A DNA stretch of 64,000 nucleotides from an uncultured Gammaproteobacteria bacterium. Lineage in GTDB: Bacteria; Patescibacteriota; Microgenomatia; Woykebacterales; RBG-16-39-9b. Below, piece after piece: positions 29,986 through 42,003 of this stretch. The stretch spans positions 100,340 through 164,339 of the forward strand of contig CAYIWY010000001.1 in NCBI GenBank assembly GCA_964367355.1. Direction: 5' to 3'. Made by a program: the position numbers and the translations under genes. The notes under the pieces were generated by a model that did no database searches, was not told the DNA's origin, and worked only from the letters and a program-made list of their open reading frames with translations. Position 1 is the stretch's first letter. Each line of letters opens with the position of its first letter.

Positions 29986-30891
29986 TCAATGGGCGATCTT
30001 TGACTTGTAAAAGAAATAACCAACAGTACCAAAGGTGATTACAGGAGAAAGCCAATGTGGGATATCAAATCCAAAACTATCTAAAATCATGATTATTCCT
30101 AGGAACAGTATTGAATACATAGCTCCGTTTTTCAGATACTTATAGCGTTTTATTCGCTCGATATTACTGACAGTTAATTTTCTTAAGACTAAGGCGCCTA
30201 GACCATTTCCAATTAGGATTAAAGGTACAAAAAAAGTAAATGCAAATGCTCCGATAACTCCGTCGATTGAAAAAGTGGAATCAAGCACTTCAAGATAAGC
30301 AATCTTGCTAATATCCGACATGTTTCTGCTGATCATTTTTTTCTCCTGTTCTTCAGCAAACTGTCTGAATCCGTGAATTATAAAAAAAGAAGTTGAACCA
30401 ACCACAGCGGCAAACCCTAACATAGTACTTTTTTGTAGTGCAAACCAAACAATTATAGTTAGTAAAATTGAGACAACAGCGAAGAACCAGGCCCCCTGTC
30501 TTTGAAAAAATCCTTCGCCCCTTAGGCCAAAGTTTTTTGGTTCTAAAAAGAGCCAGTTAAAAAATAAAAAGATAAGAAATACCCCGCCTCCAAGTAGTAA
30601 CAAAGGGGAAGACTGTTCGATCGCATCGACGATTTTTGGGTCGTTAGAGAAAGCAGCAGTAAGAACACCCATCGGTCCGATACTAGGGTTGGCAACCCAA
30701 ACGATCGCAAAAGGTAGTAAACCTCGAACAACAAAAACAGCGAAAAAGAACCCATAAAGCAGAAACCAACGACGGGCTTTTTGACTCATACCACCGAGAA
30801 CTTCGGCGTTGATGATTGCGTTATCAATGCTTGTAATAATCTCAAACAAAGACAGTCCGAGGACTGTCAATACTAAAAAGCCTATTTCCAT
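29986..30891 (-). CDS. Integral membrane protein, TerC/DUF475-like
   Basis: Polytopic protein with the SIDNAIINAEVL motif. Confidence 0.5.
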   Translation of the reverse strand: MEIGFLVLTVLGLSLFEIITSIDNAIINAEVLGGMSQKARRWFLLYGFFFAVFVVRGLLPFAIVWVANPSIGPMGVLTAAFSNDPKIVDAIEQSSPLLLLGGGVFLIFLFFNWLFLEPKNFGLRGEGFFQRQGAWFFAVVSILLTIIVWFALQKSTMLGFAAVVGSTSFFIIHGFRQFAEEQEKKMISRNMSDISKIAYLEVLDSTFSIDGVIGAFAFTFFVPLILIGNGLGALVLRKLTVSNIERIKRYKYLKNGAMYSILFLGIIMILDSFGFDIPHWLSPVITFGTVGYFFYKSKIAH

Positions 30892-31017
30892 TTCTGAATT
30901 TTAACACTAAATTACTAAAATTCCAGCAAGAAAAGTGCGGGTTCAACAACGAAGTTATACGATTTTCTTATTACTCTCAGGCTAATTTTAAAGTGATTCT
31001 GGAGTTTTTATGGTTAA

Positions 31018-31052
31018 AAAAGAGGCAACCTTTAGGTTGCCTCTTTTCCGTA
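31018..31052 (-). terminator. Rho-independent terminator; perfect 10-bp stem agaggcaacc / ggttgcctct
   Basis: On the minus strand the stem is followed by a U6 run. It lies downstream of the 31070..31540 gene. Confidence 0.75.
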
Positions 31053-31069
31053 GCAAATTAGTATACTTC

Positions 31070-31540
31070 TTAGACTAAACTTCTAAGAAAATCTAATACT
31101 TTGCTCAACACTTGGATTACTTGATCTAAAGGACCACTTATCTTAATCGAGGCACTTGGAGTAGCTGAGTGAGTTGCCGAGACAGTTGCTCCTAGGTGAT
31201 TGTTACCCTTAATACTTATTTTAATTTTTAACTGTTGGCTAGAGTTTTCCCTAATTGCAGCTGTTGCTACGGAACGATGCTCTTTACCTTCTAATTTTTC
31301 TTCGTTTTTGTCATCACCTTCGTCTTGATCGTTTTCCTTATGTCCTTGGTTAGAAACACTTGATGTTCCGTGGTTGTCTTTGGCAACTTCGCTTACTTCT
31401 CCTCCATGATTTCCTTGGTTGTCTTTGGCAATTACTGAAACCCTAGACCCATGATTGTCATTATGATCACCGTTTGCTAAAGCAGACACTGGAGCAGCTA
31501 ATAATAAAAGGGTTGGGAGAACTAAAAGTAATTTCTTCAT
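31070..31540 (-). CDS. Secreted His/Asn/Gly-rich repeat protein with a signal peptide
   Basis: MKKLLLVLPTLLLLAAPVSALA signal; repeated DN.GNHG motifs. Confidence 0.6.
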   Translation of the reverse strand: MKKLLLVLPTLLLLAAPVSALANGDHNDNHGSRVSVIAKDNQGNHGGEVSEVAKDNHGTSSVSNQGHKENDQDEGDDKNEEKLEGKEHRSVATAAIRENSSQQLKIKISIKGNNHLGATVSATHSATPSASIKISGPLDQVIQVLSKVLDFLRSLV

Positions 31541-31656
31541 TTTCTAAAAACTCCTTAAGGTTATTAAACAGGGGCTAAAATTGCCCTCTGCAAATGTATA
31601 ACGAAAAGCCAAGTAATCCGTTACATATTTTAGAGGGATGGTAGAATGAAGATTCT

Positions 31657-32130
31657 ATGGTTGAGGAGTTTACCGAAATTTACCTTAAATATTCCGATAA
31701 GATCTTCCGGTTCCTCTACTGGCACCTTAAAGATGTTCACAGAGCTGAGGATTTGACAAGTGAAGTATTTTTTAAAGCTTTCAAAAACTGGAAGAGATTC
31801 AAAGAAGGCTACCCCCAGGCTTGGCTCTTTCGGATTGCACGCAACTTATTGATTGATTTTTACCGCTCGAAGAAGACAAGTTCACTTGAGCAAGCTGAGG
31901 AGATAAGTGTTGACCTAGATTTGGTTGAAAGTCTAGAAAAGGATGAAGCAGCTCAAAGTTTGCAACAAGCTTTAACCAAACTACCAAAGAATTTACGAGA
32001 GGTAGTGATTTTAAGGTTTTTTGAAGACTTAAGCGCTGTTGAGATTGGTGCTATTCTTGGAATAAGTGAAGGCAATGTTCGAGTACTACAGTTTCGAGGG
32101 TTAAAAAAGTTAAAAGAGGAACTAACATGA
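31657..32130 (+). CDS. ECF-type RNA polymerase sigma factor
   Basis: Sigma-70 region 2 (WLFRIARNLLIDFYR) and region 4 (REVVILRFFEDLSAVEIGAILGISEGNV). Confidence 0.88.
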   Translation: MVEEFTEIYLKYSDKIFRFLYWHLKDVHRAEDLTSEVFFKAFKNWKRFKEGYPQAWLFRIARNLLIDFYRSKKTSSLEQAEEISVDLDLVESLEKDEAAQSLQQALTKLPKNLREVVILRFFEDLSAVEIGAILGISEGNVRVLQFRGLKKLKEELT

Positions 32131-32816
32131 ACAGAGACGAACTAATAAATGAACTAATTGCTGCCGGAGCCGATCCATCGGAGGCAGAAGAACTAGCAAA
32201 TTTTAAGGATTCTTTGAAAAAGCCAATGCTTGAAAGAAACCAAAGTTTTAAGCTGAGACAGGTTAATCAAATATCGAGCAATCTGAATAAACCTTCTGGT
32301 TTTGATTGGCGGCGTTTTATTAGACCGTTTGGTTTAGCCCTTGGAGGCTTGTCTGTTGCCGGAGCCTCTGTTTTTGCTTCGCAAGGTAGCCTTCCGGGTG
32401 AATCGTTATATCCGATAAAAAGGTTGTCAGAAACTGTGTTTGAGAAAATCAAACCTGAGTTTAAAGATGAAATTCCCGTTCGACGCAGCGAAGAGGTAAG
32501 AAGTTTGATTGAGAAAAATAAGAATGACGACGCAATTAAAAGGAGTTTAGAGGACTATCAGAAACAATCTTCTGAGTCTGAAAATAAAAACACTATTAAA
32601 CAAGCAGTGGACAATTTAAGAAAGGCACAAGAGGAGGCATCAGAAAAGTCAAAAGAGGCGATTGAAAGGGTACTTAAAGAAGGTGATGTTAAAGGTGAGC
32701 AAATTAATAAGGAATCTGAAAATAAAGGTAGTGGGTCCAAAGACTCTGAGCAAAAATCAGGTGCTGGTTCCAATTCATCTGGGGAGAGCAACTCCCATTC
32801 TGGCGGGGGAGATTAA
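32127..32816 (+). CDS. Putative anti-sigma factor: single TM, charged C-terminal domain
   Basis: Its start overlaps the sigma gene stop (ATGA). It has one TM helix (FGLALGGLSVAGASVFA). Confidence 0.6.
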   Translation: MNRDELINELIAAGADPSEAEELANFKDSLKKPMLERNQSFKLRQVNQISSNLNKPSGFDWRRFIRPFGLALGGLSVAGASVFASQGSLPGESLYPIKRLSETVFEKIKPEFKDEIPVRRSEEVRSLIEKNKNDDAIKRSLEDYQKQSSESENKNTIKQAVDNLRKAQEEASEKSKEAIERVLKEGDVKGEQINKESENKGSGSKDSEQKSGAGSNSSGESNSHSGGGD

Positions 32817-32938
32817 ACTTTTTTAAAGAACGAGGTTCGCAGAGCACTTTAGTGATCTACTTTGCGAAGCAATGAGGAGCAAAGCGATCTATTTTCACCA
32901 ACAGAACTTAAATAGGTTTATTTTGGTTGCTTAACTAG

Positions 32939-33367
32939 TCAGACTATAAAATGTTTTTGGAGAAATGTTCCTGGAGTTACAATTCTTATTTCAGGGACTG
33001 TACTTTGTGCTTTTTGTGTGAGTATGTGACTTTTATCTAGGCTCAATAGAAAATCCACTTTAGCTTCCATCGCAGAGATTAAAATATGACGGTCTTTAAT
33101 ATCAATTTCTTTAAGATTTTGGAGTTTGTTTTCATCTGGAAATGGTAGGATTTTGAAATAATTACTTTCCAACCAGTTTATAAAAAGATCGTAACTTGCT
33201 TTAGCAAGCTTCCTGCTTATTGCTTCTTCGCTTTCCGCCACTACACCATCGTTTATCCAACCTTCAACTTTTCCTTGGCGAATAGAATTAACAACTTTAA
33301 AAGAACCACCAGTCTTCGAACCTGCAGCAGCAACCAAAACTGAAGAATCGAAAAAAACTTTAAGCAT
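32939..33367 (-). CDS. vapC: PIN-domain toxin (VapC-like)
   Basis: N-terminal FFDSSVLVAA with acidic residues at PIN positions. Its stop overlaps the start of the upstream antitoxin gene. Confidence 0.65.
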   Translation of the reverse strand: MLKVFFDSSVLVAAAGSKTGGSFKVVNSIRQGKVEGWINDGVVAESEEAISRKLAKASYDLFINWLESNYFKILPFPDENKLQNLKEIDIKDRHILISAMEAKVDFLLSLDKSHILTQKAQSTVPEIRIVTPGTFLQKHFIV

Positions 33368-33599
33368 TTAACTTATCTGCTTCGAGAAAACCTTCTATGT
33401 CGCTGTCAGTATAACTGCGTAGATATTTTGTAGGGATACTTCGCAGTGGTTTAACAATCAGTTCGCCTTCTTTAACACTAACATCTAATAGAGAGTTTTC
33501 ATCTATTCCTAACTGCTTGCGGAAAGCCGAAGGTATGGTTATTTGGCCTTTTGCGAGAGGTTTTACAATTTCCGAATTACGAAGTCTAGAAGATTTCAT
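33360..33599 (-). CDS. vapB: AbrB/MazE-fold antitoxin (VapB-like)
   Basis: AKGQITIPSAFRKQLGI ... ELIVKPL, a SpoVT/AbrB swapped-hairpin motif. Confidence 0.65.
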   Translation of the reverse strand: MKSSRLRNSEIVKPLAKGQITIPSAFRKQLGIDENSLLDVSVKEGELIVKPLRSIPTKYLRSYTDSDIEGFLEADKLNA

Positions 33600-33825
33600 A
33601 TAGTTAGAATTATATCGTTAAGAAACTCATAATTTCTATATTATAGAATTTCTAACTTTATCTGTCAATACTAAGGCGTACTCGTTGGATCCGCCAATCG
33701 GCGGACGGGTTTAGGCACCTCTGGCCTCAAACGAACAGTTTCAGTTTTTCACCAGCAAATTTAAATCATTTCTTACTTTTCGCCAATTAAAGCAGTAAAA
33801 TGCTTAATTAGAGAGGTAGGTTCAA

Positions 33826-34194
33826 ATGTTGACGCCAGTGATCCGGTTAATCACCCAAGAGATGGTAAACTCTTACGCTGAAGTATCGGGTGATCACAAC
33901 CCGCTTCATGTAGACAAGGAGTTTGCTGAGAAGTCTATTTTCGGAAGCACGATTGCTCACGGGATGCTTATTCTTGCTTTGGTTTCCGAAATGATGTACG
34001 CGGGGTTCTCAAAAGAATGGGCAACTAGTGGAGGTTTAAAGATAAGGTTCAAGAGACCAACATTTCCGGGAGACACTGTTACTGCAATTGGAGAATTACT
34101 TAGTGAAACGAACAACGCCTCGACCTTTGCAGTGAGCTGTGTAAATCAGAAGGGAGAAGTGCTTTTAGAGGGTAGGGTGTTTGTTAGAAAATAA
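33826..34194 (+). CDS. MaoC-like hot-dog fold dehydratase
   Basis: GDHNPLHVD ... HGML ... FKRPTFPGDTV. Confidence 0.8.
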   Translation: MLTPVIRLITQEMVNSYAEVSGDHNPLHVDKEFAEKSIFGSTIAHGMLILALVSEMMYAGFSKEWATSGGLKIRFKRPTFPGDTVTAIGELLSETNNASTFAVSCVNQKGEVLLEGRVFVRK

Positions 34195-34297
34195 CAAAGC
34201 ATTTGGTTAACAAAGGACATTCTTGGAGGAGATGTCCTTTTTCTTACTTAAGAAGTCCGATTCTCCTTAAGGTTTGAAGAGGTTCCGAAATCAATAT

Positions 34298-34384
34298 CCT
34301 TGGTCGGGCTTGTTGGACTACACTTCGCTAAAGCTTCGCTGTAGCAGGCGATATTCGCAACCTCTGGCATCAATTAAACTCCTT
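34298..34384. repeat. R1 intergenic repeat, copy A (ttggtcgggcttgttggac ... aacctctggcatcaattaaac)
   Basis: Part of a family with at least 6 copies between island cassettes. Other copies are at 33681-33730, 35021-35080, 35781-35860, 36455-36565 and 38252-38335. Confidence 0.75.
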
Positions 34385-35017
34385 TTAGATCTTTTGGATT
34401 TTTAAGTTGATAAAGAACCTTGTAATTTCCGCATCTGTTCCCAGTGTTCCGGTTTGAATATTTGATTCAATAGTTGCGGTTGAAGAGGTTGTGTAGTTTA
34501 CCTGCCATTCTCTATATCCCGGATCATTTTCATAATTTACTCTGATTAATGTAATCGCCCCTGTGGTCTTTGGTTCAGACTCAATCCAACTATACTTGTT
34601 CGACAACCTCAGAAAAACCTGTTGGCCATTACTTATGGCAAAGAACTGACCAAAGTCTTTTTCAGTAATAATTAATTTATACTCTTGTGGAATGGTAGTG
34701 CTCTTCTCGCTCGTCTCAGTATCTTTTTTAGTACTTGTTGGGGTTGAATTTTTTTCAGCACTTTTTGTTGCGACTTTATTCCCAGAGTCAGTTGTGTTAG
34801 TTGTTTTACGATTATAGAACGATAAATAAGCTATGTAAAATAAAGCAGCGACTATTAGCGCGGCAATAACAGAAATTCCCAAAACTAATCTCCAATTAAA
34901 TTTATTTCCCGATTTATTATCGGTAGATGATGGTTGATTTGTTGGTTTAAGGTCTTCACCCATTAAGTAAATTATAGCACTCGTGGGAGCATTTTGTTGG
35001 TTGGACTCTGTCTTCAC
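34385..35017 (-). CDS. Membrane-anchored protein with a Ser/Thr-rich linker and an extracytoplasmic domain of about 110 aa. The start is possibly at 34963 (MGEDLKP).
   Basis: One TM helix followed by a T/S-rich low-complexity segment. Confidence 0.5.
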   Translation of the reverse strand: MKTESNQQNAPTSAIIYLMGEDLKPTNQPSSTDNKSGNKFNWRLVLGISVIAALIVAALFYIAYLSFYNRKTTNTTDSGNKVATKSAEKNSTPTSTKKDTETSEKSTTIPQEYKLIITEKDFGQFFAISNGQQVFLRLSNKYSWIESEPKTTGAITLIRVNYENDPGYREWQVNYTTSSTATIESNIQTGTLGTDAEITRFFINLKIQKI

Positions 35018-35164
35018 CGGTTGGTGAGTGAGGAACCTTTACCCTCAAATCAACTCTTTTAAAAACTGCAGGTCGCAGAGCGCGTAGCGATCTATTTTTG
35101 TTGGCTAACCTAAATACGTTGTTCGATTCTCGCGAAAGACAGTAGAGTTTGATATAATTTATGT

Positions 35165-35773
35165 GTGGGTAAAGATTCCGGTAAAGATTATCTAATAAAA
35201 CTAGACGAACGAGTTAGAAGAAACTTAATTGTAGTTTATATAACGAGTGTTCTAATAAGCTTTCCAATCCTCTTTTATTTTTTTCTTATCCCAACAAAAT
35301 ATATATTATTTAGCCTCCCGTATTTAACTGGCTTTGTTATTTATGGATTCCTCTGGATTAAAAATATCTTTAAATTAAAGGAACGAGCATCTGATTCAAA
35401 TCTGTTTCCTAATCTCGAGAAGGAAAGAAAAAACATAAACATTTCTTTTCTTGTTTTTTTGACCCTTTGGTTAATAGTAGGTCTATTGTCTAAATTAATT
35501 TTTTTGGTTATTTTCACGGTTATTTTAGTTTGGGTTGTAACCTTCCCTTCCGTAGTCTTATATTTCGCTATCTTCCATAAATATTTTTACTTTAATTACT
35601 TTATGTATGGGGTCTACAATTTGAATTATCCAATGACAAACTTTACACTTCCTACCTATATACATATTCCGTTCTGGTTGATATTTGTTCTGATTTTCTG
35701 GGCTCTTGTTAACCCTCAATTAAATGATTCTTCAAGCACTTTGTTTTTACCAAACCTCTTAAAACTACCTTAA
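35165..35773 (+). CDS. Polytopic membrane protein, hypothetical (GTG start)
   Basis: About 5 TM helices; no recognisable family. Confidence 0.45.
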   Translation: MGKDSGKDYLIKLDERVRRNLIVVYITSVLISFPILFYFFLIPTKYILFSLPYLTGFVIYGFLWIKNIFKLKERASDSNLFPNLEKERKNINISFLVFLTLWLIVGLLSKLIFLVIFTVILVWVVTFPSVVLYFAIFHKYFYFNYFMYGVYNLNYPMTNFTLPTYIHIPFWLIFVLIFWALVNPQLNDSSSTLFLPNLLKLP

Positions 35774-35780
35774 CAGAGCT

Positions 35781-35860
35781 CTTGGTTGGGCTTGTTGGAC
35801 TACACTTCGCTAAAGCTTCGCCTAGATATCAGGAACCTCTGGCCTCAGTTAAACTCGTTT
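35781..35860. repeat. R1 intergenic repeat, copy B
   Basis: Near-identical to copy A over about 45 nt (ttggac tacacttcgctaaagcttcgc). Confidence 0.75.
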
Positions 35861-35894
35861 GTAGAACTTGTTCGCAGAGCGCGTAGCGGGCGAT

Positions 35895-36149
35895 TTAACC
35901 TTTATAGATTTCTCTTCGGTGTCCGATACGCAAAATAACTATTTCTTTCCCTTCAATATCAAAAGTTACTCGATAATCGCCGATTCGAAATCGTCTTTTT
36001 CCAAACCTAGATTCTTTAAGAGACTCGCTATATTTCATTGGGTCGTTTTCGAATTCTGCTAATTTTTTAGCAAACCTTTTCTTAACGATTCGATCAAGTT
36101 TTGCCAGATCCTTTAGAGATCTTTGGGTGTAAGTGAGTTGGAATTTCAT
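35895..36149 (-). CDS. relE: RelE/ParE-family type II toxin
   Basis: YRVTFDIEGKEIVILRIGHRREIY C-terminal signature. Confidence 0.8.
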   Translation of the reverse strand: MKFQLTYTQRSLKDLAKLDRIVKKRFAKKLAEFENDPMKYSESLKESRFGKRRFRIGDYRVTFDIEGKEIVILRIGHRREIYKG

Positions 36150-36156
36150 TCAGAGG

Positions 36157-36414
36157 TTATAGATCGCCAAAAACTTGCTCGTGAGTGTATACGCGACCAG
36201 CTTTAAAATCTTCTCTAGCTTCTTTTATACTTTTAATATATTGGGGGGAGTTGGCCATTAGTAGATCTTCAAAGAAATCAATGTTGACCAGTGCAACTTT
36301 TGGCTCACCGCGTTCGGTTACAAGAATATAATCTTCTTTTTCGCTCACCTCGTCTATAACATCTGCTAAGCTGTTCCTAAAAGTTGTTGTCGAGACTATC
36401 TTGGAGTTTTTCAT
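36157..36414 (-). CDS. phd: Phd/YefM-family antitoxin
   Basis: TTFRNSLADVIDEV ... ILVTERGEPKVALV. Confidence 0.8.
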   Translation of the reverse strand: MKNSKIVSTTTFRNSLADVIDEVSEKEDYILVTERGEPKVALVNIDFFEDLLMANSPQYIKSIKEAREDFKAGRVYTHEQVFGDL

Positions 36415-36454
36415 ACATCTGAAGTGTACAGTTGAATTGTAATAATGTCAATAG

Positions 36455-36565
36455 CCATTGGTCGGCCTTGTTGGACCCAACTTCGTAAAAACTACGCTGG
36501 GCAAGCTCCAGAACCTATGGACTCAACTTAACTCTTTCGACTTTAGCCCACAGAACCTAAATCGG
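36455..36565. repeat. R1 intergenic repeat, copy C
   Basis: Shares ggtcgSccttgttggac and aacctatggactcaacttaactcttt ... ccacagaacctaaatcg with copy D. Confidence 0.7.
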
Positions 36566-36682
36566 TTCCTAATTCGTTGATTTACACAACTTTTAGTGTT
36601 ATATTTATAACAATTCGTTTATCGAAGGTGGATAACCCGTAAGGGTATCGTGGAAGGGTTGGCGAGAGCCAACCTCTTTCAT

Positions 36683-37465
36683 TTAGATTAACTTTTTCCC
36701 ATACCCTTTAAAGTTATTAAAAGTTCTTCCAACAACATATTTATTTTGAATAGAATTCAAGATTTGTTTGGTAAAACTTTTAGGTGCTACTTTTAGCTTT
36801 TCATATTCAACCAAAACGTCAAATTTGGTTGGGGAACAGAGTAGGTCAGTAAATTCTAAGCCTTCGATCCCGTATGATTTAATTTTTAATTTAATTTCTT
36901 TTGAAGTTAGAACGGATTGGATAAAATCAGGTTCCCTAAAATTTGTCCCTCTAGTGTAAAAATGTGTATAACTTGCTTTCAATTGTAAGTCTTCTTTTTT
37001 CCCTCTTGCCTCTGCACAAACGTCACCCCTCCCCATAGTTGCAAGAAAATTAGTATATCTTTCGAGCATCACAGTAAGGCAATAATGATAAGGGTGTTCA
37101 GCGGCCTTTGAATACTTTTCTAAATGATCTTTTTTATCAATTACAACGCAGATTATCTTATAATCAACGTCTTTTACCATTGATAATAACTGTCGGTTAT
37201 ACTCTTCTTTAATTTTTGTATCTTGCAGTTTATTAAAGTAGTTCTTTTTATTTACAATATCCTCTCTGTGTAAAATCGGTAAGTTGTCGGGATCGTTTGA
37301 GAATAACTTCTTTATACTTTTTATTCTTGGCTGTAAATCAGATTCATAATTATCCAAACTGATAATTACACCTGTGAGAGATAGGTATTGCTTCCCTACT
37401 TCGTCAGATTGGGAATAGTGATGATTACCTGATTCATCAATATAAAGTCGATAAAGATTTTCCAT
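36683..37465 (-). CDS. DUF3800-family protein. The probable start is MENLYRLYIDESG at 37465.
   Basis: The N-terminal YIDESG motif is characteristic of DUF3800. Confidence 0.55.
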   Translation of the reverse strand: MENLYRLYIDESGNHHYSQSDEVGKQYLSLTGVIISLDNYESDLQPRIKSIKKLFSNDPDNLPILHREDIVNKKNYFNKLQDTKIKEEYNRQLLSMVKDVDYKIICVVIDKKDHLEKYSKAAEHPYHYCLTVMLERYTNFLATMGRGDVCAEARGKKEDLQLKASYTHFYTRGTNFREPDFIQSVLTSKEIKLKIKSYGIEGLEFTDLLCSPTKFDVLVEYEKLKVAPKSFTKQILNSIQNKYVVGRTFNNFKGYGKKLI

Positions 37466-37504
37466 ATGATAACAAGGTACTGATTCTACCACCAAAGTGT
37501 TAAA

Positions 37505-38185
37505 ATGGCAGCTATGAAACTAGATGTTCCTTTAATAAGACAACCAAAAGATTCTGTTGACTGTGGGGTAGCAGCAGTAACTATGGTGCTAAACTTTCAC
37601 AGGACTGAGAAAACTTTTGAGGAGGTTAAGAAGGATATTTCTACTGATGAAGTAGGTACTTATGCCCCACAACTAGGAGAGTATCTAGCAAGACAACATT
37701 TTTCTGTAGATATTGTTGTTAGAAACCCACTACTTTTTACAAGAAATGACGAAAATCTAGATAAAAATTCATTAACTGAGAAGTTTAACCGGTTGCAACA
37801 TAAAGGAGTTAGTATTCATAATCTGAAAGTAATAAATTACTTCAATAACTTCCTAAAATGGCCACAGAATAAGGTTACTGTAAAGATTCCAGACAAAAAT
37901 GATATTGAAGAAGAAATTAATAGTGGGAGACCATTAATTGCCTTTTTAACAAACGCTGCTCTTTATAGAGAAAACATAGCTGAAAAACATAAAAAGGATT
38001 TTTCCTACACCTTTCATACGGTTGTAATTACTGGTTTAGAAAATGGAAAAGTTTTTGTTAATGACCCTTATGCGGAGGAAGACGGTGGGAGTAAAGAATA
38101 CCCATTAGAAGATTTTCTATTTTCAATGTACTCTAGTTCTCTTGGGGATTTGGATAACGGAAGTTTGATAAAAGTTAGGAAATGA
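37505..38185 (+). CDS. Standalone peptidase C39-like (papain-fold cysteine peptidase) domain protein
   Basis: Q..DCGVAAVTMVL (Gln/Cys), then FHTVVITG ... NDP (His/Asp). The triad is complete. Confidence 0.65.
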   Translation: MAAMKLDVPLIRQPKDSVDCGVAAVTMVLNFHRTEKTFEEVKKDISTDEVGTYAPQLGEYLARQHFSVDIVVRNPLLFTRNDENLDKNSLTEKFNRLQHKGVSIHNLKVINYFNNFLKWPQNKVTVKIPDKNDIEEEINSGRPLIAFLTNAALYRENIAEKHKKDFSYTFHTVVITGLENGKVFVNDPYAEEDGGSKEYPLEDFLFSMYSSSLGDLDNGSLIKVRK

Positions 38186-38251
38186 TCCTAGAGGTTCGAT
38201 AACTACTCAGCCCTGCTACAATTTGATATAGTAACTCAGGCACGAATTTTA

Positions 38252-38335
38252 TTGGTCGCCCTTGTTGGACGATATCAGGAACCTCTGGCCTCAACTTAAT
38301 TCTTTTAACTTTAGTCCACAGAACCTAAATCGTTT
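38252..38335. repeat. R1 intergenic repeat, copy D
   Basis: ttggtcgcccttgttggacgatatcaggaacctctggcctcaacttaattctttt ... ccacagaacctaaatcg. Confidence 0.7.
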
Positions 38336-38358
38336 TTATAATAGGTTAACTTTGCCCC

Positions 38359-38988
38359 TTACAACTTAAGCTTGGTAAAATCGTTTTTTGAGTAAGTGCT
38401 TAGGTCTTGAACAGATAAAATTTTAACTGCTTCGGAAAAACCCTCAAACATTTTATTTAACCTGGTTTTTTTACCCTGTATCTGTTCCTCTTCTAATTCC
38501 TCAACAAATAGGTTTATGGAATTTTTGATTTCTGCATAAAATTCCGGTAAATAGATACCGAATCTTTTTAATTTAACGTCACTTCCAATATACCACTCTG
38601 CTATTTTACCCCCTTTCTTAATCCATTTTGGATGATGTGTATGAAGTAACCCGTGTCGAAACACTTCGTAATGTAACCCGTAAGTGGGAGAAAGAATTTT
38701 AAATTTCCTCATAAATTTAGCTACATCTTTACCCTCATTTTTCTTCTTTGGAATATATCCCCAGTATAAATGAGAAAGGTAAGTTAATTCAGCAAATAAA
38801 AATCTCACTGCCGAGTAAAATGCTCCGGGAGAGTTTTTAAGAATGGTATCCATCTCTCGATTTAACGACTCAAGAAGTTCGTTTTCAAGGTACGCGACAG
38901 CAACCGTGTGGTTGAAATACTTTTTATAAACCCTTTTATCTGCAGGTTGCCAAACTCCTTCTAAATAATACCCAATAATATTTTCCAT
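38359..38988 (-). CDS. Hypothetical protein (209 aa), divergent partner of the second C39-like gene
   Basis: ORF with a -10-like box; no recognisable family. Confidence 0.45.
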   Translation of the reverse strand: MENIIGYYLEGVWQPADKRVYKKYFNHTVAVAYLENELLESLNREMDTILKNSPGAFYSAVRFLFAELTYLSHLYWGYIPKKKNEGKDVAKFMRKFKILSPTYGLHYEVFRHGLLHTHHPKWIKKGGKIAEWYIGSDVKLKRFGIYLPEFYAEIKNSINLFVEELEEEQIQGKKTRLNKMFEGFSEAVKILSVQDLSTYSKNDFTKLKL

Positions 38989-39087
38989 CGTTTGGATTTT
39001 ACCACCAAAGTGCTAAAATGGCAGCTTTTTTTAAAATCATTCTTTCTGCTCCTTGTTAATAAATATATAAATTCTACAATCTCCAAT

Positions 39088-39489
39088 ATGAGACCAATAA
39101 AGCAAGAGGATCCTTTTGGATGTGCAGTTGCCTGTGTAGCTTCGGTATTGAGGATTGATTATCAAGAGGCGTTACATATCTTTAGAGATGGTAACAGGAA
39201 GGCTAAGACAACAGGTTTTTATTGCAGAGAAATAGTTAGTGCACTTGAAAAGGAAGGACTAAAGTATGAGTACAAGTACATAAGTAGCAGGTTTAGAAAG
39301 AAGATATACAAGCCAGGTACAATTGTCTTTTTAAGAAGATCTAAGAAATATCCTGAAGGTCACTACCTATGTCGAACTAGTAGTAAGGAGTGGATGGATT
39401 CCTGGTTTAACTTCCCATCTGAGAAACGAGAAGCAGGGTTTAGAAAGAGACTACCAGAAAAATCCATATATTTGATTTACCCACTTTAG
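39088..39489 (+). CDS. Second standalone peptidase C39-like domain protein. The start is ATG 39088 (MRPIKQEDPFGCAVACV).
   Basis: Q ... GCAVACVASVL ... GHYL ... MDSW triad. Confidence 0.6.
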   Translation: MRPIKQEDPFGCAVACVASVLRIDYQEALHIFRDGNRKAKTTGFYCREIVSALEKEGLKYEYKYISSRFRKKIYKPGTIVFLRRSKKYPEGHYLCRTSSKEWMDSWFNFPSEKREAGFRKRLPEKSIYLIYPL

Positions 39490-39494
39490 AGAGA

Positions 39495-40103
39495 TTACAC
39501 AATCTTGCGATCTTCCCCTTCCACAATAACTGCTTGCTTATCAGTTAGCTTGATCAAGTCGTATTTGTCTGAATATTTCTTCACTATTTCTTCATATTTT
39601 GATATGTACTTCTTATTGCCAAAATGAGGTAGGGCAACAAAATCTACCAGACCAAGGCCTTTAGTTGAATCTAGTTTGGCTTTGCTGGGATCATCCATCC
39701 AAGCGACTGGTTCAATGTCTGGACCAACAAGGACAGAACCAGCACTAGAACCAATATAGATAACCCCTTTTTCAACCAACTCTTTAACAACCTCATCAAA
39801 GCCTGATTCTCTGGCTTTTTCTAGCAAGTAGAAAGTATTACCACCACAGACGAAAATTATGCTTGCATTGCCCATTTCTTCTCTCAAATTACCCATACCT
39901 TTTTTCTTCAAATCGACCTCTTGCACCAGATAACCCCTCTCTTTCAGTGCTTTTCTATCGACATCAACAAACCACTTGTCTTCGTACGGATCGGCTGCAG
40001 TAGGAATAAAGGCAACTGTAGTTTTTTCAAGAGAATCAGAGAAAGTATCTACAAATTTGTCTGCAGACTCAGCAAAAACTGAAGCTAAGAAAAGTCTCTT
40101 CAT
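39495..40103 (-). CDS. Peptidase S51 (dipeptidase E / cyanophycinase-like)
   Basis: FVCGGNTFYLL ... IGSSAGS. Confidence 0.75.
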   Translation of the reverse strand: MKRLFLASVFAESADKFVDTFSDSLEKTTVAFIPTAADPYEDKWFVDVDRKALKERGYLVQEVDLKKKGMGNLREEMGNASIIFVCGGNTFYLLEKARESGFDEVVKELVEKGVIYIGSSAGSVLVGPDIEPVAWMDDPSKAKLDSTKGLGLVDFVALPHFGNKKYISKYEEIVKKYSDKYDLIKLTDKQAVIVEGEDRKIV

Positions 40104-40648
40104 AATTTAGTAAACTCTGAACTTTTCACCCTAACCGCTTCTGACATTTTTTCAGTACTAACATAAGCCAAAACATCAACGTCAGGGTCATATAACTCAA
40201 TCATATCTAGGTCAGGTCTTTCAAAGACTCTTGCACCTTCCATTTTCTTACCCGCAATTAGTTCGTCTTTTAGCTGTTTGTATTTTTCAGGTTCTAAGTA
40301 AAAATCTACATCTCCAACGTGATGTCGATAGGGGTCTGGTTTCCTGATATAGAGATGGGTGTAAGTAGTTTCGGGAACATCATCTTGTGCTGGGATAACG
40401 ATTGGTTTAAGTAAAGTGAAATACTTTTGATTTGGATTGTCTGAGGGTTCAGTAAGTTCTTTTCTAAACTTTATCAGAGCCTCATATTCAACATCGTAAT
40501 GACAAAACACTCCAATATTACCAGCATTATTTGGAAGGTAATAACCGAAGGATTGTTTAGAAAGTTTGTGAGCTTCAAAATTAATGTGCTTAGCAGCTTC
40601 AAGCAGTTCATCTATGCTTTGTATTGGACTAAATCTGTACAGTTTCAT
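40100..40648 (-). CDS. Hypothetical protein (182 aa)
   Basis: ORF overlapping both flanking genes by 4 and 1 nt (operon). Confidence 0.45.
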   Translation of the reverse strand: MKLYRFSPIQSIDELLEAAKHINFEAHKLSKQSFGYYLPNNAGNIGVFCHYDVEYEALIKFRKELTEPSDNPNQKYFTLLKPIVIPAQDDVPETTYTHLYIRKPDPYRHHVGDVDFYLEPEKYKQLKDELIAGKKMEGARVFERPDLDMIELYDPDVDVLAYVSTEKMSEAVRVKSSEFTKL

Positions 40649-41376
40649 TACTTGACACCCCTATTTACGTTGGTTGCAAGCCATTCAAAGATTTTCTGGT
40701 TGTAATCAGCCACTTTCTCCTCGGTTGCATTATCTAGCGAATGTGTAACTCCCTTGACAGGAATAACCTCGGGTTTGAATGCATTTGCGTAGGCATCTGT
40801 TGTTTCCCTTGGTATTTCCTCATCGAGTTCGTGAACAACAAGTAGAACCTTACCTTCAAACTCGGAAGCACGAGCGAGTAATGGATGGTTCTTTAAATCC
40901 TCTACATTGTGCCTAAATGCTTGTGTACCATCCCTGTCTTCATTTTTTATCAGAGTGTAAAACTCTGACGGTTTGTAGATTGCTGGTGCTCGTAAAATGA
41001 GACCATCAAATTTCCGATACTTAGTAAGCTGAGTTGCCAAAAAACCACCATAGCTTGAACCGATTACAAAGAACTTGCGGTTAGGATACTTTTCCTTCAT
41101 CCAATCAAAAACAGTTATTACCTCTAGAAAATGTTGGGCTGGTCTAGTTTCTTCGATGTTAAATGGACTATCGCCGTGTCCAGAATAATCAAAAATTAGA
41201 GATGTAAAGCCAGGTTCTTCGGCCAGTCTTGGTAAAAGATTTTGGTAATGTTTTTTGGTTCGGTGTGATGTTCTGCCAATTAGCGAAAGCAATAAAGCAC
41301 CATTTTTGCTGCCTTCATAAATATCCGCTTTCACCGCGTAACCTTTACATTCGATATCAGTGGTAATTGGCTTCAT
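40648..41376 (-). CDS. Alpha/beta hydrolase (serine hydrolase)
   Basis: GSSYGG nucleophile elbow; HGDS motif. Confidence 0.75.
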   Translation of the reverse strand: MKPITTDIECKGYAVKADIYEGSKNGALLLSLIGRTSHRTKKHYQNLLPRLAEEPGFTSLIFDYSGHGDSPFNIEETRPAQHFLEVITVFDWMKEKYPNRKFFVIGSSYGGFLATQLTKYRKFDGLILRAPAIYKPSEFYTLIKNEDRDGTQAFRHNVEDLKNHPLLARASEFEGKVLLVVHELDEEIPRETTDAYANAFKPEVIPVKGVTHSLDNATEEKVADYNQKIFEWLATNVNRGVK

Positions 41377-41563
41377 TTTGTCTCCAACATAGACTTAATA
41401 GTAACTAATTGATTGTATATTACACCAAAAATGCTGGAATGGCAGCTATTGAGATAAACACAATTTAGTTGACTAATTTACCTTTATACAACAATCAATA
41501 TCAGACGAGCAAATTTGACTTTGGGTACGTACCTGATACAATTAACTTAATTAGTAATTTATA

Positions 41564-41818
41564 TTGTTCTGTCAGTCAAAAGAAGCTATTAATATGGCTA
41601 TTTTAACATCTAATTATGCGACAGCTTGGGGACAAGGAAATACGGTTAAAATTTCAAACGGGAAACCAAAAGGCTTTGAAACAGAGTTTGCAATTCCAGA
41701 ACTTTTTCCAAAGTGGGTCTGGGTACGCTATCACTTACCTTGGGATAAATTTATTCCGTTATATAACGAACAACTATCGAAGCTGGACGTCCACGAAATA
41801 GCCTCAAAGGTTCGATAA
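41564..41818 (+). CDS. Hypothetical small protein
   Basis: ORF only. Confidence 0.25.
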   Translation: MFCQSKEAINMAILTSNYATAWGQGNTVKISNGKPKGFETEFAIPELFPKWVWVRYHLPWDKFIPLYNEQLSKLDVHEIASKVR

Positions 41819-41856
41819 TATTTTAGGGTTAAATGAGTTTCTAAGTTCAAAAACCT

Positions 41857-41931
41857 TGGTCGGGGTGAGAGGAATCGAACCTCCGACATCAGGACCCCCA
41901 GCCCTGCGTTCTACCACTGAACTACACCCCG
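41857..41931 (-). tRNA. tRNA-Pro (anticodon GGG) with an encoded CCA
   Basis: Cloverleaf: acceptor CGGGGTG/CACCCCG, D-arm GTTC/GAAC, anticodon stem CAGGG/TCCTG with loop CTGGGGG, T-arm GGAGG-TTCGATT-CCTCT, then ACCA. Confidence 0.8.
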
Positions 41932-41975: not shown

Positions 41976-41996
41976 CTACCACTGAACTACACCCCG
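41976..41996 (-). repeat. 21-bp exact direct repeat of the tRNA-Pro 5' end (nt 1-21), a truncated pseudo-tRNA copy
   Basis: ctaccactgaactacaccccg occurs at 41911-41931 and at 41976-41996. Confidence 0.8.
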
Positions 41997-42003
41997 TAAG
42001 TGA

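What the first reader, a model, noticed from the sequence alone, without database searches (positions are those of the whole stretch)
36683..39489. Two divergent gene pairs share a duplicated compact bidirectional promoter: constant C39-like peptidase plus a variable partner
**Seen in sequence.** The 26-nt segment attctaccaccaaagtg(t/c)taaaatggcagct occurs at 37484-37513 and at 39001-39026. A third, weaker copy lies at 41425-41450.
- On the plus strand it reads TGnTAAAAT, an extended -10, placed so that the first C39 peptidase mRNA would begin at or within a few nt of its ATG (37505 or 37514). That would make it essentially leaderless.
- On the minus strand it reads TGGTAgAAT or TGGTAAAAT, another extended -10. 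This drives the divergent partner, which is the DUF3800 gene in pair 1 and an unknown 209-aa gene in pair 2.
- Both partner genes begin ATGGAAAAT.
- Both C39-like proteins keep the Gln/Cys...His/Asp catalytic residues. They have no signal peptide and no ABC-transporter fusion.

**Inference.** This is a modular two-gene arrangement with a conserved core (promoter plus papain-fold peptidase) and a swappable partner. That pattern is reminiscent of toxin-immunity or defence modules. Both pairs sit in an island rich in TA systems. I cannot assign a known system to it.
Basis: partly seen in the sequence, partly recalled or inferred. Interest (0 to 1): 0.7.

Follow-up and report, generated by a model that had tools for sequence, protein, structure and literature searches.

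The report
Shared 35-bp two-way leaderless promoter
The repeated 26-mer is real and is the core of a roughly 35-bp two-way promoter that a group of uncultivated groundwater bacteria place in front of many unrelated gene pairs, so finding it beside two cysteine-peptidase genes does not indicate a peptidase-plus-partner system.

Summary
The repeat is confirmed: 26/26 nt (one Y) at 37488-37513 and 39001-39026, plus a weaker copy at 41412-41446, with none expected by chance.

Related metagenome contigs carry the same element. Its consensus is TTTGnATyTTAC(A)CCAAAAATGCTAGAAT, often followed by GGCAGC. I found 29 non-redundant copies between unrelated genes.
- An ORF starts 6-11 nt (mode 7) after the right -10-like hexamer in 13 copies.
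- An ORF starts 6-11 nt after the left hexamer in 14 copies, and on both sides in 10.
- The rate at random positions is 1.6%.

Leaderless starts are common in this genome generally.

The [quoted passage not shown] inference is not supported.
- The two peptidases belong to different families (BLASTP E = 0.2).
- C39-1 orthologues sit opposite S51 peptidase, NUDIX or FtsK genes.
- In 80 loci, the 133-aa mini-C39 has no recurrent neighbour and no fixed orientation.
- Homologues of the 209-aa partner never neighbour a C39 gene, and there are no PADLOC hits.
- The second peptidase has its own promoter (TTGTTA-16-TACAAT-7-ATG).

The pairs lie in a hypervariable cassette island next to tRNA-Pro. The cassettes are separated by an unexplained ~100-nt repeat.

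The parts
37478..37512 (.). Promoter element, copy 1. Plus -35-like TACTGA at 37478-37483 (degenerate). Left (minus-strand) -10 ATTCTA at 37483-37488. 12-nt spacer CCACCAAAGTGT. Right (plus-strand) -10 TAAAAT at 37501-37506. GGCAGC at 37507-37512, whose reverse complement gives the CTGCCA minus-strand -35.
38991..39025 (.). Promoter element, copy 2. TTTGGA at 38991-38996. Left -10 ATTTTA at 38996-39001. Spacer CCACCAAAGTGC. Right -10 TAAAAT at 39014-39019. GGCAGC at 39020-39025.
41412..41446 (.). Promoter element, copy 3 (subtype ACACCAAAAATGC). ATTGTA at 41412-41417. Left -10 ATATTA at 41417-41422. Right hexamer TGGAAT at 41435-41440, degenerate because it lacks A2. GGCAGC at 41441-41446. It is 92% identical to the copy at the syntenic place in L093.
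36683..37468 (-). DUF3800 protein (261 aa). The ATG lies 14 nt from the left -10 of copy 1, so a leader of about 8 nt without a Shine-Dalgarno sequence is predicted.
   Evidence: PF12686, 3.8e-07
37514..38185 (+). Stand-alone C39 peptidase, C39-1 (223 aa). The ATG lies 7 nt after the right -10 of copy 1, so a leaderless transcript is predicted. The 37505 start chosen by some gene callers lies inside the -10.
38359..38988 (-). 209-aa protein of unknown family, possibly HEPN-like. The ATG lies 7 nt after the left -10 of copy 2, so a leaderless transcript is predicted.
39053..39080 (+). Separate promoter-like site TTGTTA-16-TACAAT, ending 7 nt before the ATG of the mini-C39 gene.
   Evidence: sequence
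39088..39489 (+). Mini-C39-like papain-fold cysteine peptidase, C39-2 (133 aa).
39495..41376 (-). Three-gene minus-strand unit downstream of copy 3: alpha/beta hydrolase (40648-41376), 182-aa unknown (40100-40648) and S51 peptidase (39495-40103). It has a leader of about 34 nt with a GGAG Shine-Dalgarno sequence.
   Evidence: sequence
36453..36579 (-). R repeat that bounds the pair-1 cassette on its left.
38250..38338 (-). R repeat between pair 1 and pair 2. It is conserved together with copy 1 and C39-1 in L210 and L212.
41857..41931 (-). tRNA-Pro(GGG). Its 3' end faces the island. The same tRNA flanks the island in L212 and L093.

Best explanation
The shared sequence is a lineage-specific element of about 35 bp made of two back-to-back sigma-70-type promoters that share the same DNA. 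A -10 hexamer for the minus strand (ATyTTA as read on the plus strand) and a -10 hexamer for the plus strand (TAGAAT or TAAAAT, preceded by TG) lie 12 bp apart. Each promoter's -35-like position falls just beyond the other promoter's -10. RNA polymerase bound in either orientation would start about 7 nt past its hexamer. In many copies that position is the A of an ATG, so both divergent mRNAs are leaderless or nearly so, with start points about 39 bp apart.

The window holds three copies, all in one accessory island.
- Copy 1 serves DUF3800 (leader of about 8 nt) and C39-1 (leaderless).
- Copy 2 serves the 209-aa gene (leaderless). The mini-C39 downstream has its own promoter.
- Copy 3 serves the hydrolase/S51 operon, which has a leader with a Shine-Dalgarno sequence. 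Its plus-strand half is degenerate.

The peptidase genes are two of many cargo genes found beside this element. They are not a functional partner of it.

Shown: the repeat, its recurrence, the fixed spacing to start codons, and the lack of conserved gene partners. Inferred: that transcription actually starts there.
For: - **The repeat is non-random:**
- **It recurs.** There are 29 non-redundant copies in the window and in related contigs. Their flanking genes are unrelated.
- **Spacing to start codons is fixed.** An ORF of at least 50 aa starts 6-11 nt (mode 7) after the right hexamer in 13 of 29 copies, after the left hexamer in 14 of 29, and on both sides in 10. The rate at random positions is 1.6%, giving P around 1e-16.
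- **The left boundary is sharp.** Positions -29 to -22 (TTTGnATy) were not part of any search pattern, yet they are 70-97% conserved, and conservation stops at -30.
- **The consensus scan agrees.** It reports CTGCCA-17-TAGAAT or TAAAAT with an upstream TG on the minus strand at copies 1 and 2.
- **Leaderless starts are common in this genome.** About 20-25 of 79 genes in the window have a TAnnnT hexamer, often TGnTAnAAT, 6-9 nt before the ATG and no Shine-Dalgarno sequence.
- **C39-1 orthologues keep the element but not the partner.** At 86%, 60% and 58% identity they keep the element 7-8 nt before their ATG, while the opposite gene is S51, FtsK or NUDIX.
- **The syntenic copy is conserved with different genes.** In L093 the copy at the same place is 92% identical while the genes on both sides differ.
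- **The element is lineage-specific.** It is absent from 80 other CPR and DPANN loci and from IMG/VR, apart from chance matches inside coding sequence.
Against: - There are no transcript 5' ends, so promoter activity is inferred from sequence alone.
- The 12-nt spacer (CACCAAAAATGC) is conserved more tightly than promoter function needs. This suggests common descent by copying, or a bound factor.
- In the commoner subtype the minus-strand TG sits directly against the hexamer (GGTGTAAAAT), which is not the canonical TGn spacing.
- The conservation of GGCAGC is inflated by the search pattern. Four copies found without it (L213, L210:1825, L171:812, L197:5505) lack it, so the minus-strand -35 assignment is weak.
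- 12 of 29 copies have no ORF at leaderless distance on either side.
- The element occurs only in the island within this 64-kb window, so it is not the general promoter form.
Confidence: 0.7

Rival explanations
1. One reading: each pair is a functional two-gene module, such as toxin-immunity or defence. The promoter plus a papain-fold peptidase would form the constant core, and the partner gene would be exchangeable.
For: - Both plus-side genes are papain-like.
- The best PDB fold matches of the mini-C39 include a CdiA-CT toxin (8ssm) and a papain-like toxin/immunity pair (9l5u).
- The island carries type II toxin-antitoxin pairs.
- The block of copy 1, C39-1 and R is conserved while the partner differs.
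Against: - The two peptidases are not detectably related to each other (E = 0.2).
- No homologue of the 209-aa protein, DUF3800 or C39-1 lies within 6 kb of 80 mini-C39 loci.
- The mini-C39 family has no recurrent neighbour family and no consistent orientation.
- The partners of C39-1 include the housekeeping gene FtsK.
- Homologues of the 209-aa protein lie next to AAA_18, DUF4365 or unknown genes, never a C39 gene.
- There are no PADLOC hits.
- The same element flanks many non-peptidase pairs.
- The mini-C39 has its own promoter.
Confidence: 0.05
2. The conserved 35-mer is chiefly the binding site of a regulator, or of a dedicated sigma factor, that co-regulates a set of accessory genes. The promoter hexamers would be embedded in that operator.
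For: - The spacer and flanks are conserved far beyond what hexamers require.
- In the window the element is confined to island genes.
- A sigma-70 r2/r4_2 sigma factor with a putative anti-sigma gene lies at 31657-32816, at the island's edge.
Against: - The element has no dyad symmetry.
- The hexamers are ordinary housekeeping-type extended -10 elements, like those at other genes of the window. They are not ECF-type.
- No regulator gene recurs next to copies.
- This explanation is not exclusive of the best one.
Confidence: 0.12
3. The element is a recombination joint or the end of a mobile cassette. Genes would be exchanged on either side by recombination within or at the 35-mer and at the R repeats, and the promoter reading would be secondary.
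For: - One side is constant and the other swapped in three comparisons: window copy 1 against L210, L157 against L130 (left gene shared, right gene and the right half of the motif differ), and window copy 3 against L093 (both sides differ).
- Cassettes are bounded by R repeats, and cassette content differs between genomes.
- The island is 11 kb here and 1.6 kb in L093.
Against: - No recombinase gene was found in the window.
- 35 bp is marginal for RecA-dependent exchange.
- The fixed 7-nt distance to ATGs on both sides is what a promoter predicts. A crossover site does not predict it.
- Motif subtypes do not track the flanking genes in a simple way.
Confidence: 0.1
4. The shared sequence is a simple local duplication of a segment within this genome, with no wider significance.
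For: Copies 1 and 2 share the ACCACC/AAAGTG subtype and the GGCAGCT tail, and they lie 1.5 kb apart.
Against: - Similarity ends within a few nt of the element, and the flanking genes are unrelated.
- The same element occurs in at least 20 other contigs from other samples and genomes.
Confidence: 0.03

Closest known systems
Extended -10 (TGnTAnAAT) sigma-70 promoters giving leaderless mRNAs, as mapped in Mycobacterium tuberculosis and Streptomyces. The general point is from my own knowledge; these studies appear as references 58-59 of PMC12641261.
   Same: The -10 hexamer with an upstream TG lies about 7 nt before an ATG, there is no Shine-Dalgarno sequence, and there is no strong -35. Many other genes in the window have this layout.
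   Different: Here two such promoters are fused back to back in one 35-bp unit. Its whole sequence, spacer included, is conserved across unrelated gene pairs and across genomes.
Bidirectional promoters arising from -10 element symmetry (Warman et al., bioRxiv 10.1101/2020.01.31.928960).
   Same: Divergent transcription from one short stretch of DNA that RNA polymerase can bind in either orientation.
   Different: That class has overlapping -10 elements and start sites 7-25 bp apart, most often 18 bp. Here the hexamers are separate, 12 bp apart, and the predicted starts are about 39 bp apart.
C39 peptidase domains of bacteriocin-exporting ABC transporters (ComA, PCAT1).
   Same: Papain-like fold with the Gln/Cys...His/Asp catalytic residues.
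   Different: Both proteins here stand alone (223 and 133 aa). There is no transporter fusion and no adjacent transporter or double-glycine peptide gene.
Integron cassette arrays, and tRNA-linked accretion islands. The latter include Prochlorococcus islands with repeated tRNA 3' fragments and tycheposons; this comparison is from my own knowledge and was not checked in the paper library.
   Same: Small promoter-bearing or promoterless cassettes of 0.5-1.8 kb are separated by a conserved ~100-nt repeat. Cassette content varies between related genomes, toxin-antitoxin cassettes are present, and the island abuts the 3' end of tRNA-Pro in three genomes.
   Different: - No integrase was found.
- The R repeat has its two RYYYAAC-type boxes in direct rather than inverted order, and it does not fold better than shuffled sequence.
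- Cassette genes lie in both orientations.
- R resembles the tRNA only over about 10 nt plus the flank.

Membership tests
Sigma-70-type extended -10 promoter | TAnnnT hexamer with TG one base upstream. | tested here: met
   The plus strand has TGyTArAAT in 27-29 of 29 copies. On the minus strand the spacing is canonical (TGGTArAAT) in window copies 1 and 2. In the commoner subtype the TG abuts the hexamer.
Sigma-70-type extended -10 promoter | Transcription starts about 7 nt downstream of the hexamer. | not testable with these tools
   No transcript data are available. Indirect support comes from ATGs of real ORFs lying 6-8 nt downstream on both sides.
Leaderless mRNA | The start codon lies at or within a few nt of the start site, with no Shine-Dalgarno sequence. 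| tested here: inconclusive
   The spacing fits for C39-1 (7 nt), the 209-aa gene (7 nt) and the mini-C39's own promoter (7 nt). DUF3800 would have a leader of about 8 nt, and the hydrolase operon has a GGAG leader. The start sites are predicted, not mapped.
Bidirectional promoter in the sense of Warman et al. | Overlapping -10 elements on opposite strands, with start sites 7-25 bp apart. | tested here: not met
   The hexamers are 12 bp apart and the predicted start sites about 39 bp apart.
Peptidase C39 (Pfam PF03412 / PF13529) | Profile match above the curated cut-off, plus the catalytic Gln/Cys/His/Asp residues. | tested here: met
   This row concerns C39-1, which scores 49.8 bits against a cut-off of 24 for PF13529 and 39.5 against 22 for PF03412.
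Peptidase C39 (Pfam PF03412 / PF13529) | The same features, tested for the 133-aa protein. | tested here: inconclusive
   - The window protein has no Pfam hit, even at E = 10.
- Five of 94 homologues carry PF03412.
- Q6, C12, H92 and D/N104 are invariant.
- Foldseek matches ComA and PCAT1 C39 domains at TM 0.5-0.6.
- It is papain-like and C39-like in fold, but it is not a demonstrated family member by sequence.
Bacteriocin-processing C39 system | Fusion to, or adjacency with, an ABC exporter and a double-glycine leader peptide gene. | tested here: not met
   Neither is present in the window or in related loci.
Two-gene toxin-antitoxin, toxin-immunity or defence module | The same two gene families are adjacent across genomes. 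| tested here: not met
   Searches show no conserved adjacency. No PADLOC model matches.
Integron (considered for the R-repeat array) | An IntI tyrosine recombinase, and attC sites with inverted R''/R' boxes that form a hairpin. | tested here: not met
   - No Phage_integrase hit appears among the window proteins that were scanned.
- The boxes GTTTAAC and GTCCAAC lie in direct order.
- Fold z-scores range from -2.6 to +1.4, with no shared structure.
HEPN domain (considered for the 209-aa partner) | A four-helix bundle with an R-x4-6-H motif, and a profile match. | tested here: inconclusive
   [not shown]

The most novel reading that the evidence does not exclude
The 35-bp two-way promoter and the ~100-nt R repeats together form the fixed scaffold of a cassette-shuffling island at tRNA-Pro that has no integrase, in one lineage of CPR bacteria. 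The promoter would double as a universal joint, so that any gene can be placed at leaderless distance on either side. Recombination at the promoter and at R would generate the observed gene swaps.
Probability: 0.15. Interest if true: 0.7.

Novelty: new variant of a known kind. Interest (0 to 1): 0.4.

Why it matters
Almost nothing is known from experiment about transcription signals in CPR bacteria.
- **A testable prediction.** A sharply bounded, recurrent 35-bp element that predicts two leaderless transcripts can be tested directly against metatranscriptome 5' ends.
- **A practical part.** It would be a ready-made compact dual promoter for work on these organisms.
- **A fix for gene calls.** Several callers start these genes inside the promoter, for example the 226-aa MAAMKL... 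product, the 270-aa DUF3800 product and the 242-aa product in L214.
- **A caution.** It removes a tempting but unsupported "new defence or toxin module" reading.
- **A separate lead.** The surrounding island, bounded by R repeats and next to tRNA-Pro, deserves its own study as a possible gene-cassette system.

Tried and rejected
- **Relatedness within the pairs.** BLASTP of the two peptidases against each other and of the two partners against each other found no significant similarity.
- **Family searches.** Pfam, NCBIfam and PADLOC searches of the 209-aa, 133-aa, 182-aa and 74-aa proteins gave nothing useful.
- **Motif beside mini-C39 homologues.** No copy was found in 80 genome loci.
- **Metagenome scan.** Most of the 120 hits to the 19-nt degenerate pattern were chance matches and had to be filtered by the flanking sequence.
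- **IMG/VR scan.** It returned only chance matches inside coding sequence.
- **Half-motif searches in the window.** They were not enriched over shuffles, so the element is not the general promoter form.
- **R repeat as a structured RNA or attC.** There was no Rfam match, no consistent or significant fold, and the boxes lie in direct order.
- **Integrase in the window.** None was found.
- **HEPN assignment of the 209-aa protein.** It has no support at sequence level.
- **Organism name.** None could be obtained.
- **AFDB fold library.** It was unavailable.
Full report
**Observation.**
- The sequence ACCACCAAAGTGYTAAAATGGCAGCT is present at 37488-37513 and 39001-39026. No match arose in 100 shuffles, even with three mismatches allowed.
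- Ungapped similarity runs over 43 nt (37474-37516 against 38987-39029, 79%). A third copy at 41408-41450 is 74% identical.
- The 10-mer AATGGCAGCT occurs only at these three places in the 64-kb window.
- All three copies have the same orientation, and each lies directly upstream of a minus-strand gene. These are DUF3800 (ATG at 37468), a 209-aa gene (ATG at 38988) and an alpha/beta-hydrolase, 182-aa, S51-peptidase unit (ATG at 41376).
- The readings as TGnTAAAAT on the plus strand and TGGTArAAT on the minus strand are correct. So is the shared ATGGAAAAT start of the two minus-strand genes.
- A consensus scan independently lists CTGCCA-17-TAGAAT (37511 to 37483) and CTGCCA-17-TAAAAT (39024 to 38996), both preceded by TG.

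**Source and setting.**
- The window comes from a 186,945-bp contig of a Hainich groundwater metagenome. Nearly identical contigs occur in several other runs.
- It carries a ribosomal-protein operon, recA, RNase Y and other core genes, so it is a bacterial chromosome.
- The best relatives of its small proteins are from Levybacteria, Curtissbacteria and other CPR bacteria.
- The pairs lie in an accessory stretch between TerC (29986-30891) and tRNA-Pro(GGG) (41857-41931). That stretch holds PIN-MazE, ParE-Phd and PIN toxin-antitoxin pairs.

**The proteins.**
- C39-1 (37514-38185, 223 aa) is a clear stand-alone C39 peptidase (Peptidase_C39_2, 7e-13).
- The second "C39-like" protein (39088-39489, 133 aa) has no Pfam hit, even at E = 10. 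It is not significantly similar to C39-1 (E = 0.2 over 44 residues).
- It does belong to a well-conserved family of about 132 aa, with 94 clusters.
  - The family has invariant Q6, C12 and H92, with D/N at 104.
  - A few members carry PF03412.
  - The AlphaFold model is confident (pLDDT 96.6).
  - Its closest solved folds are papain-like: a CdiA-CT toxin, staphopain, and the C39 domains of ComA and PCAT1, at TM 0.5-0.6.
- Both proteins are therefore papain-fold cysteine peptidases, but of different families.
- DUF3800 is confirmed at 3.8e-07.
- The 209-aa partner has only seven homologue clusters and an invariant FRHGL(M/L)H(T/S)H motif.
  - Sequence profiles give no support for this.
- None of the island proteins matches a PADLOC model.

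**Is there a conserved two-gene module? No.**
- I fetched 80 genome loci that encode relatives of the mini-C39. They come from CPR bacteria, DPANN archaea, Caedibacter and Paracaedibacteraceae, and Bdellovibrionia.
  - None has a homologue of the 209-aa protein, DUF3800 or C39-1 within 6 kb.
  - The upstream neighbour is divergent in only 24 of 70 cases.
  - Clustering the three genes on each side gives no family that recurs beyond local synteny of close relatives.
- Orthologues of C39-1 face different genes:
  - an S51 peptidase in L210, L211 and L171 (86% identity);
  - a NUDIX hydrolase in L213 (58%);
  - FtsK in L214 (60%).
- Homologues of the 209-aa protein lie next to an AAA_18 gene, inside an operon of unknown genes, or after a DUF4365 gene beside an integrase. 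They never lie next to a C39 gene.

**What the repeat is.**
- A metagenome scan with AAARTGYTRRAATGGCAGC returned mostly chance hits, but about 20 contigs also matched the sequence upstream of the pattern.
- Adding the loci found through C39-1 orthologues gives 29 non-redundant copies. Their consensus is TTTGnATyTTAC(A)CCAAAAATGCTAGAAT, usually followed by GGCAGC.
- The flanking genes are unrelated to one another. They include NUDIX, HAD-like, uridine-kinase-like, PNPOx-like, S51, small membrane and zinc-ribbon proteins.
- The layout is regular:
  - a left hexamer ATyTTA, whose reverse complement is TAArAT;
  - 12 nt of spacer;
  - a right hexamer TAGAAT or TAAAAT preceded by TG.
- An ATG-initiated ORF of at least 50 aa begins 6-11 nt (mode 7) beyond the right hexamer in 13 copies, beyond the left hexamer in 14, and beyond both in 10.
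- At random positions in the same DNA the rate is 1.6%, so P is around 1e-16 for either side.
- Positions -29 to -22 were never part of a search pattern, yet they are 70-97% conserved, and conservation stops abruptly at -30. That is where a -35 hexamer for the plus-strand promoter would begin with a 17-bp spacer.
- On the right, GGCAG is the mirror position, a CTGCCA -35 for the minus-strand promoter. Its conservation is inflated by ascertainment, because four copies not selected through it lack it (L213, L210:1825, L171:812, L197:5505).
- The C39-1 orthologues in L213, L214 and L210 all carry the element 7-8 nt before their ATG.
- The element is absent from the 80 CPR and DPANN loci fetched for the mini-C39. 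Its matches in IMG/VR are chance hits inside coding sequence.
- In the window it occurs only at the three island sites, and its halves are not enriched elsewhere.

**Mechanism.**
- The simplest reading is two sigma-70-type extended -10 promoters, interdigitated back to back within about 35 bp. Each starts transcription about 7 nt past its hexamer. The divergent mRNAs are then leaderless or nearly so, with start points about 39 bp apart.
- This fits the genome's general habit. About 20-25 of 79 genes in the window have a TAnnnT hexamer, often TGnTAnAAT, 6-9 nt before the ATG and no Shine-Dalgarno sequence.
- The window's three copies would work as follows.
  - Copy 1 gives C39-1 a leaderless start at 37514 and gives DUF3800 a leader of about 8 nt.
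  - Copy 2 gives the 209-aa gene a leaderless start at 38988. Its plus half is followed by no ORF for 62 nt. The mini-C39 has its own TTGTTA-16-TACAAT, 7 nt before its ATG at 39088.
  - Copy 3 has a degenerate plus hexamer (TGGAAT). It serves the hydrolase operon through a leader of about 34 nt with GGAG.
- This arrangement differs from the bidirectional promoters described by Warman et al. Those have overlapping -10 elements and start sites 7-25 bp apart, most often 18.
- Promoter activity itself is inferred. No transcript data were available.

**What the promoter reading does not explain.**
- The 12-nt spacer and the flanks are conserved more than hexamer recognition requires.
- The element keeps its place while genes on one or both sides change.
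  - Window copy 1, C39-1 and the following R repeat form an 81%-identical block with L210 and L212, and that block ends at the left hexamer.
  - L157 and L130 share the left gene but differ in the right half of the motif and in the right gene.
  - Window copy 3 is 92% identical to the copy at the syntenic site of L093, where both flanking genes differ.
- Possible causes are copying of the element together with genes, a bound factor, or recombination at the element. I rank all of these below the plain promoter explanation, and they are not exclusive of it.

**Surroundings.**
- The pairs are cassettes in a hypervariable island. A repeat of about 90-130 nt (R) occurs six times between 33.7 and 38.3 kb. 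It ends, on the minus strand, in GTCCAACAAGGCCGACCAA and has a variable central insert.
- R also occurs five times in L171/L210, and once each in L212 and L093. There it separates cassettes with different content.
- The island abuts the 3' end of tRNA-Pro(GGG) in the window, in L212 and in L093. It is 11 kb here and 1.6 kb in L093.
- The end of R plus its flank resembles the tRNA-Pro 3' end plus its flank (families D2 and D6).
- R is not an integron attC.
  - Its two RYYYAAC-type boxes lie in direct order.
  - It has no shared or significant fold.
  - It has no Rfam match.
  - No integrase was found in the window.
- I could not determine what R does.

**Verdict.**
It is a lineage-wide, portable, two-way leaderless promoter.
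- The proposed peptidase-plus-partner module is not supported.
- The element is a new variant of a known kind and is of moderate interest.
- The more novel possibility is that the promoter and the R repeats together scaffold cassette shuffling at tRNA-Pro. This remains open, and I put its probability at about 0.15.

Noticed in passing
window 33683-33777 (weak), 34296-34389, 35029-35096 (partial), 35777-35902, 36453-36579, 38250-38338; also L171/L210 (5 copies), L212:894-985, L093:1355-1497: A repeat family of about 90-130 nt (R) with a variable central insert separates small gene cassettes in the island next to tRNA-Pro. It is more conserved between genomes than the cassette genes are. It is not attC-like, has no Rfam match and no significant fold, and its function is unknown.
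   Followed up: partly
window 29986-41931 compared with L093:374-2962 and L212:131-1515: The interval between TerC and tRNA-Pro(GGG) is hypervariable: 11 kb here and 1.6 kb in L093. In L212 the block of C39-1 and R lies next to tRNA-Pro and the end of the ribosomal-protein operon. The tRNA's 3' end faces the island in all three genomes.
   Followed up: partly
window 41976-41999: A 24-nt copy, 96% identical, of the 5' end of tRNA-Pro lies 45 nt upstream of the intact gene. It is a partial tRNA duplicate on the side facing away from the island.
   Followed up: no
window 39088-39489; loci L010-L089: The 133-aa mini-C39 family (invariant Q6, C12, H92, D/N104) occurs in CPR bacteria, DPANN archaea, Caedibacter and Paracaedibacteraceae endosymbionts, and Bdellovibrionia. 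All are host- or prey-dependent organisms. It is always a stand-alone gene with no fixed neighbour.
   Followed up: partly
[not shown]
   Followed up: partly
whole window (79 called genes): About a quarter to a third of genes have a TAnnnT hexamer, often TGnTATAAT, 6-9 nt before the ATG and no Shine-Dalgarno sequence. Leaderless initiation therefore appears common in this organism.
   Followed up: partly
window 37495, 37505; L214:4408: Gene callers extend ORFs into the promoter element. Examples are the 270-aa DUF3800 product from TTG 37495, the 226-aa MAAMKL... product from 37505, and the 242-aa C39 product in L214. The conserved spacing indicates the shorter starts at 37468, 37514 and L214:4462.
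   Followed up: yes
window 39489-39495: The mini-C39 gene and the S51 peptidase gene converge with only 5 nt between their stop codons, and no terminator-like sequence lies between them. The island is also unusually rich in hydrolases: two papain-like peptidases, an S51 peptidase and an alpha/beta hydrolase.
   Followed up: no
window 31657-32816: A sigma-70 r2/r4_2 sigma factor and a DUF5667 protein, a possible anti-sigma factor, lie inside the variable TerC to tRNA-Pro interval.
   Followed up: no
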